From a virus, in UHGV virus genome UHGV-0853290: DNA of 12,700 nt; one strand, given 5' to 3'. This document shows, piece by piece, positions 254 to 12,700 of the stretch. The translations under genes were made by a program, and so were the position numbers. How positions within the stretch are numbered: position 1 is the first letter of the stretch; every line of letters begins with the position of its first letter. The notes beneath the pieces were generated by a model that was not told the DNA's origin, did not search any database, and was given only the letters and a program-made list of their open reading frames with translations.

Positions 254-964
254 TCAGAAGAACCCTGCCTTGTCGTTGATGTACTCCGCGTGCGTCTGGA
301 TATCACGCAGGCATTTGCTCACACCGACGATGTAGCAGAACATGGTGGTCAGTTCCGCCGCCGCGCCCGATACGTCGTGCCCGTCTTCCTGTAACTGGTT
401 AAGCAGATTCATCAGCAGTGAGTTCTCCGTCAGGCCGAGAACACCAGACGGCGAGTGAATCAGGCTGCGGTAGCCTGGCTTCAGCGGGGCGCTGTAGGTT
501 TTGTTCTCTATCTTCATTGCCTGCAGCACTGCTGACGCCGTGGCGTTGGCTACCTGGTCGGCAACCATCTTTATACGTTCTTCCTGCGGGAGCGAGTTTT
601 TAATGTAACTTCCGGTGCGGCGGATCTGAGGAAGAACCTCACCTGTAACCCATTTACGAAAGCGGTAGGGGATAGTGCCTGGTGTCACCGCATCGCGGCA
701 GCGGAGGATCAGTGTGTAGAGGCCTGACTCGGAGATGATGTTGATCTCTTTTACTCGGCTGTCAAAAATTGCACGATGTTCATGCCCTATGTTGAACATA
801 GACCTTTCATCATCATCCAGTTTTTCAAGTGCTTGGGTGACGTTTTGGATACGCAGCGCACTACAAACGTCTTGGGCTACAAACCATGGTTGGCCATCGA
901 TAATGATGGAACGGATAGGGTTAACAGATTCAAATTTGAAGATGGCAGTTTGAGCATTAGCCAT
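254..964 (-). CDS. phage antirepressor, Bro-N N-terminal domain plus KilAC/ANT C-terminal domain
   Basis: ORF 254-979; preferred start is the ATG at 964 (MANAQTAIFKF...) preceded by GGAGAT. N-terminus matches the Bro-N pattern (PWFVAQDVCSAL, ISESGLYTLILR, KWVTGEVLPQIRRTGSY). Confidence 0.85.
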   Translation of the reverse strand: MANAQTAIFKFESVNPIRSIIIDGQPWFVAQDVCSALRIQNVTQALEKLDDDERSMFNIGHEHRAIFDSRVKEINIISESGLYTLILRCRDAVTPGTIPYRFRKWVTGEVLPQIRRTGSYIKNSLPQEERIKMVADQVANATASAVLQAMKIENKTYSAPLKPGYRSLIHSPSGVLGLTENSLLMNLLNQLQEDGHDVSGAAAELTTMFCYIVGVSKCLRDIQTHAEYINDKAGFF

Positions 965-1233: not shown

Positions 1234-1248
1234 TTACCTCAAAGGTAA
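1234..1248. promoter_or_regulatory. box A palindrome TTACC-N5-GGTAA (copy 1)
   Basis: TTACCtcaaaGGTAA, perfect half-sites; same motif at 2755, 5365, 12558, 12620 and near-perfect at 1359 and 7539. Confidence 0.5.
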
Positions 1249-1277
1249 TAATAAATTCATAGCTCACGTTATTTCAA

Positions 1278-1290
1278 CCCTATGTGGTTT
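1278..1290 (+). promoter_or_regulatory. box B CCCTATGTGGTTT (copy 1)
   Basis: Lies 29 nt downstream of box A; near-identical 13-mers at 2798-2810 and 5410-5422 with similar spacing from a box A. Confidence 0.45.
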
Positions 1291-1326: not shown

Positions 1327-1356
1327 TTGCCAGTATGCGTATACTTTCGATAGAAT
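1327..1356 (+). promoter_or_regulatory. sigma70-type promoter of the two-gene cassette
   Basis: -35 TTGCCA (1327-1332), 18-bp spacer, -10 TAGAAT (1351-1356); about 30 nt upstream of the ATG at 1386. Confidence 0.55.
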
Positions 1357-1358
1357 GT

Positions 1359-1373
1359 TTACCCTAGAGGTAG
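1359..1373. promoter_or_regulatory. box A-like operator TTACC-N5-GGTAG at the predicted transcription start
   Basis: TTACCctagaGGTAG immediately downstream of the -10 hexamer; one mismatch to the palindrome. Confidence 0.4.
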
Positions 1374-2398: not shown

Positions 2399-2422
2399 GG
2401 CCGCTTTCGCGGCCTTTTCTTT
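2399..2422 (+). terminator. rho-independent terminator of the two-gene cassette
   Basis: Hairpin GGCCGCTTTCGCGGCC (2399-2414) followed by TTTTCTTT. The hairpin is the exact reverse complement of the one at 187-202. Confidence 0.7.
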
Positions 2423-2678
2423 ATGTGGTTTGTTTTCGTAATTGTTCGGCACAATAGTCGAGATGTGTTTGCAGATCCTGCATAGACATCTGCGAGCTGG
2501 TGACGTAGTTAATCAGTGCAGTCAGTTCGGCAAGTGGGCCATCGACATTAAATCCATCCTTATCGAGATCCCGGAGTAATTTCATCAAGTGCGATCCCTC
2601 CACCAGTGACCTGACGCCTCCCGGCGTGTGAATCCTTTCGGTAAATCCGTCTTCCAGTGGATAGTGATACTGCTGCAT
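2421..2678 (-). CDS. small KilAC/ANT C-terminal-domain protein (85 aa), paralog of the antirepressor C-terminus
   Basis: Start ATG at 2678 (MQQYHYPLEDG...) with GGAG 8 nt upstream. Aligns with the C-terminus of the 254-964 product (LAELT, DLQTH shared). The longer ORF-track version (to 2801) would run through the promoter and LexA box. Confidence 0.6.
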   Translation of the reverse strand: MQQYHYPLEDGFTERIHTPGGVRSLVEGSHLMKLLRDLDKDGFNVDGPLAELTALINYVTSSQMSMQDLQTHLDYCAEQLRKQTT

Positions 2679-2699: not shown

Positions 2700-2715
2700 C
2701 TGTATATTTATACAG
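2700..2715 (-). promoter_or_regulatory. LexA (SOS) box
   Basis: CTGTATATTTATACAG fits CTGT-N8-ACAG with an AT-rich centre; lies 22-37 nt upstream of the start codon at 2678. Confidence 0.65.
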
Positions 2716-2754: not shown

Positions 2755-2769
2755 TTACCCGTAAGGTAA
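2755..2769. promoter_or_regulatory. box A palindrome TTACC-N5-GGTAA (copy 2)
   Basis: TTACCcgtaaGGTAA in the divergent intergenic region between the KilAC gene and the tailspike gene. Confidence 0.5.
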
Positions 2770-2873: not shown

Positions 2874-4271
2874 ATGACGGTCTCAACCGAAGTTGACCAC
2901 AACGAATACACAGGTAACGGCGTTACGACATCGTTTCCGTATACCTTCAGGATTTTCCAGAAATCTGATCTGGTAGTACAAGTGGTTGACCTTGATGAAA
3001 ATATCACTGTTCTTGCTCTTGATACTGATTACGCAGTTACCGGGGCGGGAGGGTATAACGGTGGTAATGTAATTCTGTCGAAGGCGTTGGCTAACGGTTA
3101 TCAGATTTCTATATCTCGAGAGCTGCCGGTTACGCAGGAAACCGATCTGCGCAATCAAGGCAAGTTCTTTGCAGAGGTACATGAGGATGCGTTTGATAAG
3201 CTAACGATGTTGATCCAGCAGGTTAGAAGTTGGTTTAGCCTAGCGCTTCGCAAGCCATCATTCGTGGCAAACTATTATGATGCTCTGGGTAATTACATTC
3301 GCAATCTTCGTGACCCGTCACGACCTCAGGATGCGGCCACCAAGAATTATGTCGACTCTCTGGCAAATATTAACCTGTCGAGAACGTTGAGAACTCCAGA
3401 GGCAATACCTGAACTGCCTGGTGTAGAGCTGAGAAAAAATAAAATTGTAGCAATGGATAATGATGGCAATCCTATTATGGTATTGCCTGAATCAGGATCT
3501 GCTGCAGATGTTCTCATAGAGCTTGCAAAGCCAACTGGCGGCAGCCTGATTGGTTTACCTAACGGAACAGTGAGTGATGCAATTAATTATGTTACTCCAG
3601 AGATGTTTGGGGCAATAGGAGATGGTACTTTTCACGCTCTTTCTGAGCGTTTTGCGACACTGGCAGATGCGCAGGTTGTATACCCTCACGCCACATCACT
3701 TAGTCAGTCAATAGACTGGGCAGCAATGCAATCAGCTTTAAATTCTGGTTCTCAGACTCTGGATGTGAGTAAAGGAAATTATGTAGTAAACAGTAATTTA
3801 ACGGGAAACAAATCACTTCACTGGATCGGTGGAAGTGGTAAAAAGGTACAGATGATTGACGGATCTTTTATTCTTTTATCCGGGAGTCTTACTGCATTAC
3901 CTAAAATAACTGGCGGCATTAATCGCGTATCAAGGACGTTTACATTTGCATCTGTACCAGACTTATCAGCTGGCGATTCTTTTGTTGTATACAATCCGAC
4001 AGACTATAGTTGGTCTCATCACCGTGCCTACTACCGTGAAGGGGAGTTTTTCAAGGTTTTCAGCGCAACAGGAACCACGGTTAGCATCTACGGATTACCC
4101 TCGGATAATTATGTCGCCTCTGCGCTGGACGTTTATAAACTAAACGGAATTCGTGTTGTTCTTGATAATCTACACGTTGAAGGGGAAGACACATTAGATA
4201 GCGCACCTATAATTATCCGTTTCGGTCTTGATGTGGCGGTTAATAATTTTACCGGTAAAAAAATCAAATAA
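2874..4271 (+). CDS. tailspike/tail fiber protein, N-terminal fragment (T7 gp17-like N-terminal domain plus start of beta-helix), truncated by a frameshift
   Basis: ATG 2874 with GGAG 7 nt upstream. N-terminal pattern YTGNGVTTSFPYTF and NYIRNLRDPSRPQDAATKNYVDSL recalls the T7 tail-fibre N-terminal domain. Frame ends at TAA 4269-4271 just after an A7 run (4257-4263). Confidence 0.7.
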   Translation: MTVSTEVDHNEYTGNGVTTSFPYTFRIFQKSDLVVQVVDLDENITVLALDTDYAVTGAGGYNGGNVILSKALANGYQISISRELPVTQETDLRNQGKFFAEVHEDAFDKLTMLIQQVRSWFSLALRKPSFVANYYDALGNYIRNLRDPSRPQDAATKNYVDSLANINLSRTLRTPEAIPELPGVELRKNKIVAMDNDGNPIMVLPESGSAADVLIELAKPTGGSLIGLPNGTVSDAINYVTPEMFGAIGDGTFHALSERFATLADAQVVYPHATSLSQSIDWAAMQSALNSGSQTLDVSKGNYVVNSNLTGNKSLHWIGGSGKKVQMIDGSFILLSGSLTALPKITGGINRVSRTFTFASVPDLSAGDSFVVYNPTDYSWSHHRAYYREGEFFKVFSATGTTVSIYGLPSDNYVASALDVYKLNGIRVVLDNLHVEGEDTLDSAPIIIRFGLDVAVNNFTGKKIK

Positions 4272-5355
4272 TTATCAAATAGAGTTTGACCGTTGTTTTG
4301 GGGTTAATGTAAATACAGGTTCAGTAATAAACAATTCGCAAGGTTCTGATGAAGAATACGGGATTGTTATTTCAAACTGTACCGATGTTGTGGTTAATGG
4401 CGGTTCACATTACGCTAATCGCCACTGCATTGCAATTGGCGGACGAGGGGAAGTCTGCTCAATCCCTAACCGCAATATAAAAATTATTGGGGCTACTCTG
4501 CGTAACAATAGTGATGGGATTGGTGCTGCTGATATCCACGGAAACTCTGATAACATAGAATACTCCAACTGTGAATTATCATCAGCTAATATGGCTGGTC
4601 GTAACGTTAGGTACAAAAACTGCCGTATATTTCAAAGGCTGCGAGCAGACGGTTTATGTATTTACGGCTCTGAAATTGTCGGCGGGGTGTATGAAGTATC
4701 TAACTGCACTCTTATCACCCAGGGTGATCTCGACGCTTTTGGTGCTATAGCGTTGCAGGCTGCTAAGCCTATGAGAGAGAAATTCTCTCTCATAGTACGC
4801 AACATTACTGTTACTGGCGGTAATGGTGGCCCAAATGCAAAGTTAGTACATATCTTCTCTGCTGTTGGGGAAACACTCCCGATGGATGTTGATATCAGAG
4901 GAGTTCGCAATGAACTAACGGCGAGTATCGCAGTTCTTTACGCAAGACATACAACCAGCGCGGCAACCACGTTTATTTCCAATGGTTTCATTGTTGATGA
5001 TGTATACGGCCCACAAAATATGTATCTGGTGTATCCAAGTGGCACAGGTATTTCATCAATACCAACAAGGGAAATGGCACAAACAGGAAGCGTCACGATA
5101 ACATCGGCAGCAAATGCATTTAATACAGCTAGTGGCACTACGTCATTCAGGTACGGATACTCAAAGAAACCTAAATGCTCGTTTGGTGTTTCTTCGCCAA
5201 CAGGTTCGGCATTTACTAATCCTGGTCAGCCACCAGTGGCTCTCGCGTATAAGATATCAGGCACGGGTATCATACCAGCTATTACTGCGGCATCGGCATT
5301 CACAGCAGGTGTGGATGTTGATGTGAGCTGGAGCGTGAAAATATCTGACATTTAA
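4231..5355 (+). CDS. tailspike C-terminal fragment (right-handed beta-helix, depolymerase-like), in the +1 frame
   Basis: Frame open from 4228 to TAA 5353-5355; repeated Gly/Asn/Cys-rich beta-helix-like turns (VVNGGSHYANRHCIAIGG, NCTLITQG). Removing one A from the run at 4257-4263 fuses it to 2874-4271. Confidence 0.65.
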   Translation: MWRLIILPVKKSNNYQIEFDRCFGVNVNTGSVINNSQGSDEEYGIVISNCTDVVVNGGSHYANRHCIAIGGRGEVCSIPNRNIKIIGATLRNNSDGIGAADIHGNSDNIEYSNCELSSANMAGRNVRYKNCRIFQRLRADGLCIYGSEIVGGVYEVSNCTLITQGDLDAFGAIALQAAKPMREKFSLIVRNITVTGGNGGPNAKLVHIFSAVGETLPMDVDIRGVRNELTASIAVLYARHTTSAATTFISNGFIVDDVYGPQNMYLVYPSGTGISSIPTREMAQTGSVTITSAANAFNTASGTTSFRYGYSKKPKCSFGVSSPTGSAFTNPGQPPVALAYKISGTGIIPAITAASAFTAGVDVDVSWSVKISDI

Positions 5356-5364
5356 ATTTATCGT

Positions 5365-5379
5365 TTACCTTAATGGTAA
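5365..5379. promoter_or_regulatory. box A palindrome TTACC-N5-GGTAA (copy 3)
   Basis: TTACCttaatGGTAA, 10 nt after the tailspike stop codon. Confidence 0.5.
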
Positions 5380-5409: not shown

Positions 5410-5422
5410 CCATATATGGTTT
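5410..5422 (+). promoter_or_regulatory. box B CCATATATGGTTT (copy 3)
   Basis: Lies 30 nt downstream of box A copy 3; followed 6 nt later by the -10-like hexamer TATGAT (5429-5434). Confidence 0.45.
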
Positions 5423-7289: not shown

Positions 7290-7570
7290 TCATGGTACTG
7301 ATTTCCGGTGACGGTATATAAAACGGTACGGTAAAAATCTGTTTTTGGAAAGTTGTTACCAGTCAATTGGTTATGCTTACCGTAAATAATTGAGTGGGAA
7401 TGATTAACAGCTAACTCATAGCAACTCATTCCTATTCAGATACTAATTTAACCCTCTGTTTTTACAGAGGGTTTTTGTTTTTATGTATTCATTTCTATTC
7501 ACTCTACACCATATTTTTCTGCGGTACAGGTGACGGTATTACCTTAAAGGTATACTCTCATACCGTCATG
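7290..7570. other. attP-like region with clustered integrase arm-type repeats
   Basis: GGTGACGGTAT at 7307-7317 and again at 7529-7539; inverted copy ATACCGTCA at 7560-7568; further ACGGTA/CGGTAA units at 7323-7334 and TTACCGTAA at 7377-7385. Sits directly upstream of the integrase gene. Confidence 0.4.
7451..7482 (+). terminator. rho-independent terminator of the lysis operon
   Basis: Stem ACCCTCTG / CAGAGGGT with loop TTTTTA, followed by TTTTTGTTTTT. Confidence 0.8.
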
Positions 7571-12385: not shown

Positions 12386-12538
12386 TCAGCCCTCCCATAT
12401 CTCGTTATCGTTGGCCACATCTCGAGCTTCTTTGCTGACGAAAGCCCACTTAATACCTTCCTGTAAGGTGCGGAACTTCCAGCTCATGAATCCGCATGCA
12501 GTAACGCAGTACCAACCGTTGATGATTTTCCACTGCAT
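12386..12538 (-). CDS. hypothetical small protein (50 aa), first gene of the minus-strand early operon
   Basis: ATG 12538 with AGGT 7 nt upstream; ends TGA 12386-12388 next to the following start. Below the ORF-track cutoff. Product MQWKIINGWYCVTACGF... Confidence 0.35.
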   Translation of the reverse strand: MQWKIINGWYCVTACGFMSWKFRTLQEGIKWAFVSKEARDVANDNEIWEG

Positions 12539-12557
12539 AACTTGTTACCTCGGTTTG

Positions 12558-12572
12558 TTACCGTCGAGGTAA
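12558..12572. promoter_or_regulatory. box A operator TTACC-N5-GGTAA overlapping the early promoter -10/+1
   Basis: TTACCgtcgaGGTAA; nested in a larger inverted repeat TTACCTCG-N12-CGAGGTAA (12545-12572). Confidence 0.5.
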
Positions 12573-12600
12573 TGATTATGCGTATCTGGTTTGATGTCAA
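12572..12600 (-). promoter_or_regulatory. sigma70-type early promoter (minus strand)
   Basis: On the minus strand: -35 TTGACA (rc of 12595-12600), 17-bp spacer, -10 AATCAT (rc of 12572-12577); about 35 nt upstream of the start at 12538. Confidence 0.45.
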
Positions 12601-12619
12601 TAGATATGAGTTAAAAAAA

Positions 12620-12634
12620 TTACCCATAAGGTAA
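12620..12634. promoter_or_regulatory. box A operator TTACC-N5-GGTAA upstream of the early promoter -35
   Basis: TTACCcataaGGTAA, 19 bp upstream of the -35 hexamer. Confidence 0.5.
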
Positions 12635-12641
12635 TCTTGCT

Positions 12642-12671
12642 GGCAATAAAAAAGCCGCCATGAGGCGGCTT
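12642..12671 (-). terminator. rho-independent terminator for a minus-strand transcript entering from the right
   Basis: Stem AGCCGCC / GGCGGCT with loop ATGA; on the minus strand it is followed by TTTTTTATTG. Confidence 0.7.
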
Positions 12672-12700
12672 ACTTACTGAAAAATATGATTTTATTTTTG

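What the first reader, a model, noticed from the sequence alone, without database searches (positions are those of the whole stretch)
12539..12671. Early minus-strand promoter flanked by two TTACC-N5-GGTAA operators and preceded by a terminator
On the minus strand a TTGACA -35 and AATCAT -10 (17-bp spacer) precede the first small ORF. One 15-bp palindrome overlaps the -10/+1 position (12558-12572) and a second lies 19 bp upstream of the -35 (12620-12634). The proximal box is nested inside a longer inverted repeat TTACCTCG-N12-CGAGGTAA. This is the classic layout of a repressor-controlled promoter. A strong minus-strand terminator (12642-12671) insulates it from upstream transcription. Inference: the operon (small ORFs, exonuclease, RecT, AlpA-like, methyltransferase) is under control of the same factor that recognises box A elsewhere.
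Basis: partly seen in the sequence, partly recalled or inferred. Interest (0 to 1): 0.5.

Follow-up and report, generated by a model that had tools for sequence, protein, structure and literature searches.

The report
Repressor-controlled early-left promoter of phiV10-like phage

Summary
On the minus strand these are TTGACA-17-AATCAT (12600..12572), TTACC-N5-GGTAA boxes at 12558-12572 and 12620-12634, and a strong terminator (12671..12642).

The window is a Uetakevirus (epsilon15/phiV10-like phage). The terminator ends the repressor gene rep, whose last codons lie at 12692-12700. The promoter drives the recombination, AlpA and methylase operon, so it corresponds to lambda's PL/OL.

TTACC-N5-GGTAA is the top palindrome in the window and in five complete relatives (5-11 exact copies against 0.01-0.04 expected). 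Every exact copy is intergenic. The epsilon15 GenBank record already labels the homologous sites "protein_bind: repressor".

The repressor of close relatives is 43% identical to SPC32H Rep (PDB 5D50). Secondary sources describe that protein as a tetramer that binds palindromic sites and is inactivated by a LexA-controlled antirepressor. An Ant homolog with a perfect SOS box lies in this window.

Across 13 loci the box half-sites, CTATTGAC and the -10 are conserved, while box centres and the promoter spacer vary. The longer TTACCTCG/CGAGGTAA repeat is not conserved; its 3' arm is the ribosome-binding site.

Two side observations stand out. The box pair keeps a 62-bp centre-to-centre spacing at two different promoters across the genus. 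A second promoter-associated motif, CCATATRTGG, is unexplained.

The parts
12692..12700 (-). Last two codons and the TAA stop of the phage repressor gene rep (homolog of phiV10p40, epsilon15 gp38 and SPC32H rep). The rest of the gene lies beyond the window end.
   Evidence: Alignment with ZX5, phiV10 and EC.W1-9, where the annotated repressor CDS ends at the aligned position.
12642..12671 (-). Intrinsic terminator of rep: stem AAGCCGCC/GGCGGCTT, loop TCAT, then a T-tract.
   Evidence: -21.1 kcal/mol, z = -6.1. phiV10 annotates a terminator at the homologous position.
12620..12634 (.). Distal operator (OL2-like), TTACCCATAAGGTAA. With its flanks it forms a perfect 17-bp ATTACC-N5-GGTAAT. Its centre lies 62 bp from the proximal box.
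   Evidence: Half-sites are invariant in 13 loci. The homologous epsilon15 site 32616-32632 is annotated protein_bind repressor.
12613..12619 (-). Conserved T-run directly downstream of the distal box, at about -48 to -54. It could be a UP-element-like or intrinsically bent tract.
   Evidence: The tract is TTTTT(T) in most of the 13 loci and diverges in four (BUCT711, K. pneumoniae ATCC 13883, Superficieibacter, Scandinavium). The function is inferred only.
12595..12600 (-). -35 hexamer TTGACA.
   Evidence: CTATTGAC is invariant in 13 loci.
12572..12577 (-). -10 hexamer AATCAT, after a 17-nt spacer.
   Evidence: The aligned hexamer is AATCAT, AATTAT, GATTAT or TATTAT at the aligned position, 17 bp from the -35 in 10 of 13 loci, 18 bp in the two Klebsiella loci and 16 bp in Scandinavium.
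12558..12572 (.). Proximal operator (OL1-like), TTACCGTCGAGGTAA. It starts on the last base of the -10 and covers the predicted transcription start (about 12565).
   Evidence: The homologous epsilon15 site 32554-32570 is annotated protein_bind repressor.
12545..12552 (-). CGAGGTAA: the Shine-Dalgarno sequence (GAGG) of the first ORF. It also forms the 3' arm of the non-conserved longer inverted repeat and carries an orphan GGTAA half-site.
12386..12538 (-). First ORF of the early-left operon (50 aa, epsilon15 gp37 homolog). It is followed by a gp36-like ORF, RecE-like exonuclease, RecT, AlpA, a small membrane protein, PerC-like protein, adenine methylase and a DUF1382 protein, down to 8848.
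   Evidence: tblastn of annotated proteins of relatives against the window. Annotations.
1234..1248 (.). Same box. It abuts the -10 of a minus-strand promoter-like site (TTGAAA-18-TATTAT, 1277..1248) that faces the small ORF and the Bro-N/Ant-like antirepressor gene (254..961).
1359..1373 (.). One-mismatch box, 2 nt after the -10 of a plus-strand promoter-like site (TTGCCA-18-TAGAAT, 1327..1356).
2755..2769 (.). Same box between the divergent ant gene (2421..2678, minus) and the tailspike gene (2874.., plus).
   Evidence: The epsilon15 homolog 19895-19911 is annotated as a repressor site.
5365..5379 (.). Same box upstream of the lysis cassette (membrane protein, holin, endolysin, spanin).
7539..7553 (.). 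One-mismatch box (GGTAT) about 45 bp upstream of int. The same mismatch is conserved in all relatives. It lies inside a GACGGTAT/ATACCGTC inverted repeat, so it may be an integrase arm site rather than an operator.
   Evidence: epsilon15 annotates this spot as integrase and RNase III sites, not as a repressor site.
2421..2678 (-). Small antirepressor Ant homolog (85 aa). It is the likely inducer that inactivates Rep.
   Evidence: 100% identical to the EC.W1-9 and ZX5 protein. It sits in the same position as SPC32H ant.
2700..2715 (.). LexA (SOS) box CTGTATATTTATACAG, 22 bp upstream of the ant start codon.

Best explanation
The region is the early-left promoter-operator (the PL/OL equivalent) of an epsilon15/phiV10-type temperate podovirus, genus Uetakevirus.

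A sigma-70 promoter (TTGACA-17-AATCAT) starts transcription near 12565 on the minus strand. It drives a nine- to ten-gene operon: two small ORFs, RecE-like exonuclease, RecT, an AlpA-type regulator or excisionase, a PerC-like protein, adenine methylase and others.

Two palindromic operators of the type ATTACC-N5-GGTAAT bracket the promoter. One runs from the last base of the -10 across the start site. The other is centred 62 bp upstream, about six helical turns away and therefore on the same face of the DNA.

The prophage repressor Rep binds them. Rep is encoded immediately upstream and is an XRE-type helix-turn-helix protein with the invariant helix NLVNRW. It is reported to be tetrameric in phage SPC32H. 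Binding at the proximal site excludes RNA polymerase. I infer that the distal site adds cooperativity, possibly with one tetramer bridging both sites.

The hairpin upstream is the terminator of rep, which stops repressor transcripts from reading into the operon.

Induction is not by repressor cleavage. DNA damage removes LexA from the SOS box in front of ant (2700-2715). Ant then disassembles Rep, and PL fires together with all other box-carrying promoters.

What is shown here: the sequence elements, their conservation, the genome-wide intergenic distribution of the box, and the homology of the neighbouring repressor to SPC32H Rep.

What comes from literature or annotation: Rep binds palindromic sites as a tetramer, Ant inactivates it, and epsilon15 annotators assigned these sites to the repressor.

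What is inferred: the start site, occlusion, and bridging of the two sites.
For: 1. Identity of the element. The window is 92-95% identical to phiV10, EC.W1-9 and ZX5 over its shared parts. Gene order matches: rep, terminator, then the gp37-like ORF.

2. The box is real and regulatory. There are 7 copies against 0.24 expected. It is the top palindrome in an unbiased scan of the window and five genomes. All exact copies are intergenic, with binomial P from 8e-6 to 1e-13. Copies lie in the rep/cro intergenic region in every relative.

3. Prior annotation. NC_004775.2 marks the homologous epsilon15 sites 32554-32570 and 32616-32632, plus a third at 32479-32494, as protein_bind 'repressor / lysogeny'.

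4. Phylogenetic footprint in 13 loci from Escherichia, Salmonella, Enterobacter, Klebsiella, Citrobacter, Superficieibacter, Erwinia and Scandinavium. Half-sites, CTATTGAC and the -10 position are conserved. The box centres and the -35/-10 spacer vary. The spacing between the boxes is 61-63 bp in all 13.

5. The same geometry, with the box starting on the last T of the -10, recurs in two places. One is the window's promoter-like site at 1277..1248. The other is the ZX5 promoter TTGATT-17-TTTAAT upstream of the DUF1064 gene, again with a partner box 62 bp upstream.

6. Repressor identity. Rep of ZX5, phiV10 and EC.W1-9 matches SPC32H Rep (PDB 5D50, 5D4Z) over its full length at E = 4e-42. The segment NLVNRW is invariant among Reps that are only 43% identical overall. 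Five distant loci with a different third helix lack the box.

7. Function in relatives. Overexpressing the ZX5 repressor, which is identical to the phiV10 protein, abolished free phage and cut holin and endolysin transcripts by more than 99.9% (PMC9782041). SPC32H Rep binds palindromic sites as a tetramer and is disassembled by Ant (PMC9638917; PMC9986798).

8. An Ant homolog and a perfect SOS box are present in the window.
Against: - There is no direct evidence for this phage: no start-site mapping and no footprint.
- I could not read the primary SPC32H papers or the epsilon15 genome paper. That Rep binds exactly this 15-17-bp sequence therefore rests on the epsilon15 record's annotation, on secondary descriptions and on the comparative evidence here.
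- The repressor gene of this particular phage is outside the window.
- The cro-like protein or another phage regulator could bind the same boxes.
- The absence of boxes in distant loci with another recognition helix is weak evidence, because those are unrelated elements.
- The -10 matches the consensus at only 4 of 6 positions.
- The window's operators sit in front of late and accessory genes as well. The factor therefore acts as a global silencer rather than a classic two-operator immunity repressor.
Confidence: 0.82

Rival explanations
1. The boxes are operators, but the main binder is a different phage regulator that works alone or together with Rep. Candidates are the cro-like protein encoded divergently from rep, the AlpA-type protein, the PerC-like protein, or the gp49-type regulator.
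For: In lambdoid phages CI and Cro share operators (established knowledge). Boxes lie between rep and the cro-like gene. No binding experiment could be read here.
Against: The epsilon15 annotation assigns them to the repressor. The Rep third helix is invariant wherever the box is invariant. Rep overexpression silences lysis genes that carry a box upstream (box at window 5365-5379). Secondary sources state that Rep binds palindromic sites.
Confidence: 0.1
2. The longer inverted repeat TTACCTCG-N12-CGAGGTAA acts at the RNA level. It would form a 5'-leader hairpin that sequesters the ribosome-binding site of the first ORF, giving translational control rather than, or in addition to, operator control.
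For: The 3' arm contains the GAGG Shine-Dalgarno sequence. An 8-bp stem is predicted if the transcript starts at 12572.
Against: The hairpin is weak: -9.4 kcal/mol, z = -1.07, and 27 of 200 shuffles fold as well. With the predicted start near 12565 the 5' arm is not transcribed and the structure disappears. The outer pairs are broken without compensation in ZX5. The whole arrangement is absent from the Salmonella, Klebsiella and Citrobacter clade, where about 75 bp and a third box separate the proximal box from the ribosome-binding site.
Confidence: 0.04
3. The palindromes are sites for a host factor, or are repeat debris without regulatory function. On this view the promoter is constitutive and is limited only by the upstream terminator.
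For: The half-site GGTAA(T) is A/T-rich and resembles part of a -10 hexamer. Intergenic DNA is A/T-rich, which inflates chance matches there.
Against: The box occurs 5-11 times exactly per genome against 0.01-0.04 expected, and only in intergenic DNA. The half-sites are invariant while the central 5 bp vary freely. Position relative to the -10 and the 62-bp pairing are fixed. The box co-occurs with the Rep gene in six further species.
Confidence: 0.03

Closest known systems
Repressor binding sites annotated in Salmonella phage epsilon15 (NC_004775.2: 32479-32494, 32554-32570, 32616-32632, upstream of gp37)
   Same: The locus is homologous, lying between the repressor gene and the gp37 homolog. 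The ATTACC-N5-GGTAAT sequence is the same. The CTATTGAC -35 is the same. The -10/box overlap and the 62-bp spacing of the two promoter-flanking boxes are the same.
   Different: epsilon15, SPC32H, Citrobacter and Klebsiella relatives carry about 75 extra bp of leader, with a third box next to the ribosome-binding site. The window, like phiV10, ZX5 and Tyrion, has only two boxes, and the proximal one is almost fused to the ribosome-binding site. That pattern is consistent with a deletion between boxes 2 and 3. epsilon15 has no clean intrinsic terminator aligned with the one here.
Rep/Ant lysogeny switch of Salmonella phage SPC32H (PDB 5D50, 5D4Z; Kim & Ryu 2013; Kim et al. 2016, known here only through PMC9638917 and PMC9986798)
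   Same: The repressor is homologous (43% identity over its full length). The box set is identical in the SPC32H genome. A small Ant homolog and an SOS box are present in the window.
   Different: The window's own rep lies outside the window. Besides the small Ant, the E. coli clade carries a Bro-N protein whose C-terminal domain is Ant-like. According to PMC9986798, the structural mechanism of repression has not been characterised extensively.
Bacteriophage lambda PL/OL
   Same: The layout is the same (established knowledge): the repressor operon ends just upstream of a leftward early promoter that drives recombination and excision functions. Operators overlap the promoter and are the same sequence type as those between the repressor and cro genes.
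   Different: Lambda has three adjacent 17-bp operators inside the promoter, bound by RecA-cleavable CI dimers. Here two operators lie 62 bp apart and bracket the promoter. The repressor is not related to CI beyond the helix-turn-helix. Induction is by an antirepressor. The same operator also sits in front of late, lysis, tailspike, packaging and antirepressor genes.
Dispersed-operator prophage repressors (P1 C1; mycobacteriophage L5/L1 gp71)
   Same: One repressor has 10 or more sites spread over the whole genome, silencing many promoters directly (established knowledge; PMC1934351 abstract seen).
   Different: Those operators are asymmetric. Here they are symmetric palindromes, restricted to intergenic promoters, and often paired at a fixed distance.
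Loop-forming tetrameric repressors (pLS20 Rco with a TetDloop domain; LacI; GalR)
   Same: PMC9986798 reports that Rep of SPC32H has the same TetDloop tetramerisation fold as Rco, which loops DNA. Paired, in-phase operators bracket the promoter here.
   Different: Looping by Rep has not been shown. The 62-bp distance is shorter than the classical lac (92 bp) or gal (about 113 bp) loops (established knowledge).

Membership tests
Uetakevirus (epsilon15/phiV10/SPC32H) Rep operator | Sequence ATTACC-N5-GGTAAT with a variable centre | tested here: met
   Window 12620-12634 is a perfect 17-mer. Window 12558-12572 is a perfect 15-mer, with 16 of 17 positions when the flanks are counted. The sequence type is identical to the epsilon15 sites annotated as repressor binding.
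Uetakevirus (epsilon15/phiV10/SPC32H) Rep operator | Homologous genomic position, between rep and the gp37 homolog, flanking the conserved promoter | tested here: met
   Alignment of 7 loci, extended to 13. Gene order.
Uetakevirus (epsilon15/phiV10/SPC32H) Rep operator | Presence of the cognate Rep gene with a conserved DNA-recognition helix | tested here: inconclusive
   Only the last two codons and the stop of rep are in the window. In the closest relatives the adjacent gene is Rep, with invariant NLVNRW and E = 4e-42 to PDB 5D50.
Uetakevirus (epsilon15/phiV10/SPC32H) Rep operator | Physical binding of Rep to the site, and repression of the promoter | not testable with these tools
   This needs a gel shift, a footprint or a reporter assay. 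Indirect support: ZX5 repressor overexpression data and secondary descriptions of SPC32H Rep.
Sigma-70 promoter | -35 and -10 hexamers with a 16-18 bp spacer, conserved in relatives | tested here: met
   TTGACA-17-AATCAT matches 10 of 12 positions. TTGAC is invariant and the -10 is at a fixed position in 13 loci.
Sigma-70 promoter | Mapped transcription start | not testable with these tools
   No transcript data are available.
Intrinsic (rho-independent) terminator | G+C-rich hairpin followed by a U-tract, placed after a stop codon | tested here: met
   An 8-bp stem with 6 G-C pairs, a 4-nt loop and TTTTTTATT. It folds at -21.1 kcal/mol, z = -6.1. It lies 21 nt after the rep stop codon. phiV10 annotates the homolog as a terminator.
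Lambda-type OL (three tandem CI operators) | Tandem adjacent operators inside the promoter, bound by a RecA-cleavable CI-family repressor | tested here: not met
   Two boxes lie 62 bp apart and bracket the promoter. The repressor family is SPC32H Rep, which an antirepressor inactivates. The region works like OL/PL but is not a member of that family.
LexA-controlled antirepressor module (SPC32H type) | Small Ant gene with an SOS box in its promoter | tested here: met
   Ant homolog at 2421..2678. CTGTATATTTATACAG at 2700-2715.

The most novel reading that the evidence does not exclude
The promoter is silenced by a clamp. One Rep tetramer would bridge two in-phase operators exactly 62 bp apart, one over the start site and one upstream of the -35, forming a very small loop or wrap around the promoter. 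I found this module at two unrelated promoters, the early-left one and the one upstream of the DUF1064/resolvase gene, in every genus member examined.

The operator sequence and the Rep recognition helix are frozen across phages of at least eight host genera, although the Reps are only about 43% identical. This may be because 10-14 dispersed operators would have to change together. If so, the whole genus would form one immunity group, unlike lambdoid phages.

A second palindromic element (CCATATRTGG), centred near -20 in many of these promoters, would be the site of a further, unidentified regulator.
Probability: 0.35. Interest if true: 0.45.

Novelty: already known. Interest (0 to 1): 0.2.

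Why it matters
The result gives a secure functional annotation of this window's regulatory sites. It identifies the early-left promoter, its two operators, the rep terminator, and the SOS-controlled antirepressor that would switch them.

Related prophages are common: 598 of 5426 complete E. coli genomes hold a match to part of the window. They carry O-antigen-modifying genes, so knowing what silences and induces them is useful.

Beyond annotation, the result is confirmatory, because the operators were predicted in the epsilon15 record and the repressor family has been studied structurally.

Two comparative observations go a little further. One is the strictly conserved 62-bp operator pairing. 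The other is the genus-wide invariance of operator and recognition helix. Both offer a concrete, testable model for how the tetrameric Rep represses, which PMC9986798 says has not been characterised extensively.

Tried and rejected
1. Primary literature. The epsilon15 genome paper (DOI, PMC2698709, PMID 17825342), Kim & Ryu 2013 (PMC3807360) and Kim et al. 2016 (PMC4983836) are not held. I relied on the GenBank annotation and on secondary descriptions instead.

2. RNA hairpin sequestering the ribosome-binding site. Rejected as the main mechanism (z = -1.07, not conserved, 5' arm upstream of the predicted start).

3. A third operator using the orphan GGTAA at 12549-12545. Rejected, because no TTACC-like left half lies at the right distance (direct reading).

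4. An alternative -10, CATAAT, with a 14-bp spacer. Rejected, because the hexamer conserved across loci is the one 17 bp from TTGACA.

5. Search for the exact source genome. No phage record or complete E. coli genome covers more than 72% of the window. The window is a new mosaic of known modules. Its intact attP core shows that it is the non-integrated form.

6. Covariation between Rep specificity and operator sequence. No heteroimmune variant was found. All full-length Rep relatives keep both NLVNRW (TLVNRW in Scandinavium) and TTACC/GGTAA. The test is therefore only weakly informative.

7. The 7539-7553 one-mismatch box. It was not accepted as an operator, because it sits in an integrase-arm-type repeat and epsilon15 annotates it differently.

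Full report
**Observation**

Reading both strands confirms every element at the stated coordinates. On the minus strand:
- TTGACA lies at 12600..12595, followed by a 17-nt spacer and AATCAT at 12577..12572.
- TTACCTCGACGGTAA lies at 12572..12558 and begins on the last T of the -10.
- TTACCTTATGGGTAA lies at 12634..12620, 19 bp upstream of the -35.
- The hairpin AAGCCGCC-TCAT-GGCGGCTT followed by TTTTTTATT lies at 12671..12642.

The consensus scan lists this promoter first among its 10-of-12 matches, the only one with a perfect TTGACA, and lists the hairpin as the best terminator-like site. The hairpin folds at -21.1 kcal/mol, z = -6.1.

The longer repeat TTACCTCG-N12-CGAGGTAA is also present. 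Its 3' arm is the Shine-Dalgarno sequence of the first ORF (ATG at 12538).

**What the window is**

The window matches epsilon15/phiV10-type podoviruses (genus Uetakevirus) at 92-95% identity over 65-72% of its length: phiV10, EC.W1-9, ZX5 and others.

Mapping annotated proteins of relatives onto the window gives these genes on the minus strand:
- a Bro-N/Ant-like antirepressor (254..961);
- the small Ant (2421..2678);
- an operator-controlled operon from 12538 down to 8848. It comprises gp37-like and gp36-like ORFs, RecE-like exonuclease, RecT, AlpA, a small membrane protein, a PerC-like protein, adenine methylase and a DUF1382 protein.

On the plus strand are the tailspike, the lysis cassette, attP and int.

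The final nine bases of the window (12700..12692, minus) are the last two codons and the stop of the repressor gene. The terminator is therefore the repressor gene's own terminator. The promoter is positioned like lambda's PL, downstream of the repressor operon.

**The box is a genome-wide operator**

- TTACC-N5-GGTAA occurs 5 times exactly and twice with one mismatch in the window, against 0.24 expected.
- In an unbiased count of every 5-mer half-site with spacers of 0-12, it is the top palindrome in the window and in epsilon15, SPC32H, ZX5, Tyrion and BUCT711, with 5-11 copies against 0.01-0.04 expected.
- All exact copies in the window and the four genomes checked (ZX5, SPC32H, epsilon15, BUCT711) are intergenic, although only 7-9.5% of the DNA is intergenic. 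Binomial P ranges from 8e-6 to 1e-13.
- Copies lie between the repressor gene and the divergent cro-like gene in every relative.
- Copies also lie in front of packaging, head, tailspike, lysis, antirepressor and replication-distal genes.

**Prior knowledge**

The RefSeq record of epsilon15 already carries protein_bind features labelled 'repressor / lysogeny' on exactly these palindromes. Three of them (32479-32494, 32554-32570, 32616-32632) lie in the region homologous to the finding. phiV10 annotates the homologous terminator.

The repressor of ZX5, phiV10 and EC.W1-9 (identical proteins) matches SPC32H Rep over its full length (PDB 5D50 and 5D4Z, E = 4e-42, 43% identity).

Secondary sources say three things about that Rep:
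- It binds palindromic DNA sites as a tetramer.
- It is disassembled by the tetrameric antirepressor Ant.
- It carries a TetDloop tetramerisation domain like the DNA-looping repressor Rco.

These sources add that its mechanism of repression has not been characterised extensively (PMC9638917; PMC9986798).

For ZX5, repressor overexpression abolished free phage and reduced holin and endolysin transcripts by more than 99.9% (PMC9782041). I could not read the primary epsilon15 and SPC32H papers.

**Comparative footprint**

I aligned the region from seven phages and extended it to 13 loci. The extra six are prophages of Superficieibacter, Erwinia, Klebsiella, Citrobacter (two) and Scandinavium, found with the Rep alignment.

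- Invariant or nearly so: both half-sites of both boxes, CTATTGAC, and the position of the -10 (AATCAT, AATTAT, GATTAT or TATTAT, with its last T shared with the box).
- Partly conserved: a T-run after the distal box, present in most loci.
- Variable: the five central bases of each box and the -35/-10 spacer.

This is the pattern expected of a promoter bracketed by two protein-binding sites.

The Salmonella, Klebsiella and Citrobacter clade has about 75 extra bp and a third box next to the ribosome-binding site. The window's clade looks like a deletion between boxes 2 and 3.

The long inverted repeat is not conserved. Its outer pairs are lost in ZX5, and the hairpin is ordinary as RNA (-9.4 kcal/mol, z = -1.07). 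It also vanishes if transcription starts about 7 nt after the -10.

**Mechanism**

The best-supported model has four steps.
1. Rep binds both boxes.
2. The proximal box (-7 to about +8) occludes RNA polymerase.
3. The distal box, 62 bp away (5.9 helical turns), adds cooperativity.
4. The rep terminator prevents read-through into the operon.

Derepression would follow the SPC32H route. LexA leaves the perfect SOS box CTGTATATTTATACAG at 2700-2715 in front of the Ant homolog, and Ant then inactivates Rep. Binding, the start site and bridging are inferred, not shown.

**Beyond the finding**

*Operator pairing.* The centre-to-centre spacing of the box pair is 62 bp (61-63) in 13 of 13 early-left regions. 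It is exactly 62 bp at a second promoter, upstream of the DUF1064 or resolvase gene, in 9 of 9 genomes. At that promoter (ZX5: TTGATT-17-TTTAAT) the box again starts on the last T of the -10. The window's promoter-like site at 1277..1248 has the same -10/box overlap. Fixed in-phase pairing around the promoter, combined with a tetrameric repressor, suggests one tetramer clamping both sites.

*Frozen specificity.* Operator half-sites and the Rep segment NLVNRW are invariant across hosts, although the Reps are only 43% identical. This suggests a single immunity specificity for the genus.

*Second motif.* A near-palindrome, CCATAT(A/G)TGG(TTT), is enriched in promoter regions: 4 copies in the window against 0.04 expected. 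It is centred near -20 in two promoters. A degenerate inverted copy lies in this promoter's spacer. Its binder is unknown.

**Verdict**

The feature is already known at the level of public annotation and of the repressor family, so interest is low. The conserved 62-bp pairing offers a modest, testable addition.

Noticed in passing
window 2700-2715 and 2421-2678 (minus): A perfect LexA/SOS box, CTGTATATTTATACAG, lies 22 bp upstream of the start codon of an 85-aa homolog of the SPC32H antirepressor Ant. The Ant homolog is 100% identical to the EC.W1-9 and ZX5 protein. This implies SOS induction through an antirepressor rather than through repressor cleavage.
   Followed up: partly
window 1281-1290, 2801-2810, 5413-5422 (plus); degenerate inverted copy at 12591-12580; relatives L003-L007: A second recurrent near-palindrome, CCATAT(A/G)TGG followed by TTT, occurs in promoter regions. 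TATRTGGTTT occurs 4 times against 0.04 expected, though one copy (2422-2431) lies inside the 3' end of ant. In the ZX5 DUF1064 promoter, and inverted in the early-left promoter spacer of the E. coli/Enterobacter clade (perfect in Tyrion), its core is centred near -20. The binder is unknown.
   Followed up: partly
window 12565/12627 and 1241/1366 (box centres); L001, L003-L013: Box pairs keep a 62-bp centre-to-centre distance (61-63) at the early-left promoter in 13 of 13 loci. They keep exactly 62 bp at a second promoter, upstream of the DUF1064/resolvase gene, in 9 of 9 genomes. The divergent pair in the window is 125 bp apart, about twice 62.
   Followed up: yes
window 7389-7405: The attP core attgagtgggaatgatt reported for ZX5 (PMC9782041) is intact, with phage DNA on both sides. 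The window is therefore the non-integrated (phage or circular) form, not a prophage junction.
   Followed up: partly
window 254-961 (minus): The Bro-N 'antirepressor' carries a C-terminal domain about 40% identical to the small Ant protein, so the phage encodes two Ant-like modules. Its promoter-like site (1277..1248) carries a Rep box at the -10.
   Followed up: partly
window 7529-7568: The one-mismatch box TTACCTTAAAGGTAT upstream of int sits inside an inverted repeat GACGGTAT...ATACCGTC. GGTGACGGTAT recurs at 7307-7317. epsilon15 annotates the equivalent positions as integrase arm sites and an RNase III site, so this 'box' may serve recombination rather than repression.
   Followed up: partly
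L003 32479-32569, L004 33528-33618 (compared with window 12545-12572): The Salmonella, Citrobacter and Klebsiella relatives have about 75 bp of structured leader (RNA fold z = -2.5) and a third box between the proximal operator and the ribosome-binding site. The window's clade lacks it, which looks like a deletion between two boxes.
   Followed up: partly
window 2874-5355: The tailspike region is mosaic. Only the first 166 residues match relatives, at 70% identity. A second long ORF (4228..5355, 375 aa) has no counterpart in the annotated relatives used. No record covers more than 72% of the window.
   Followed up: no
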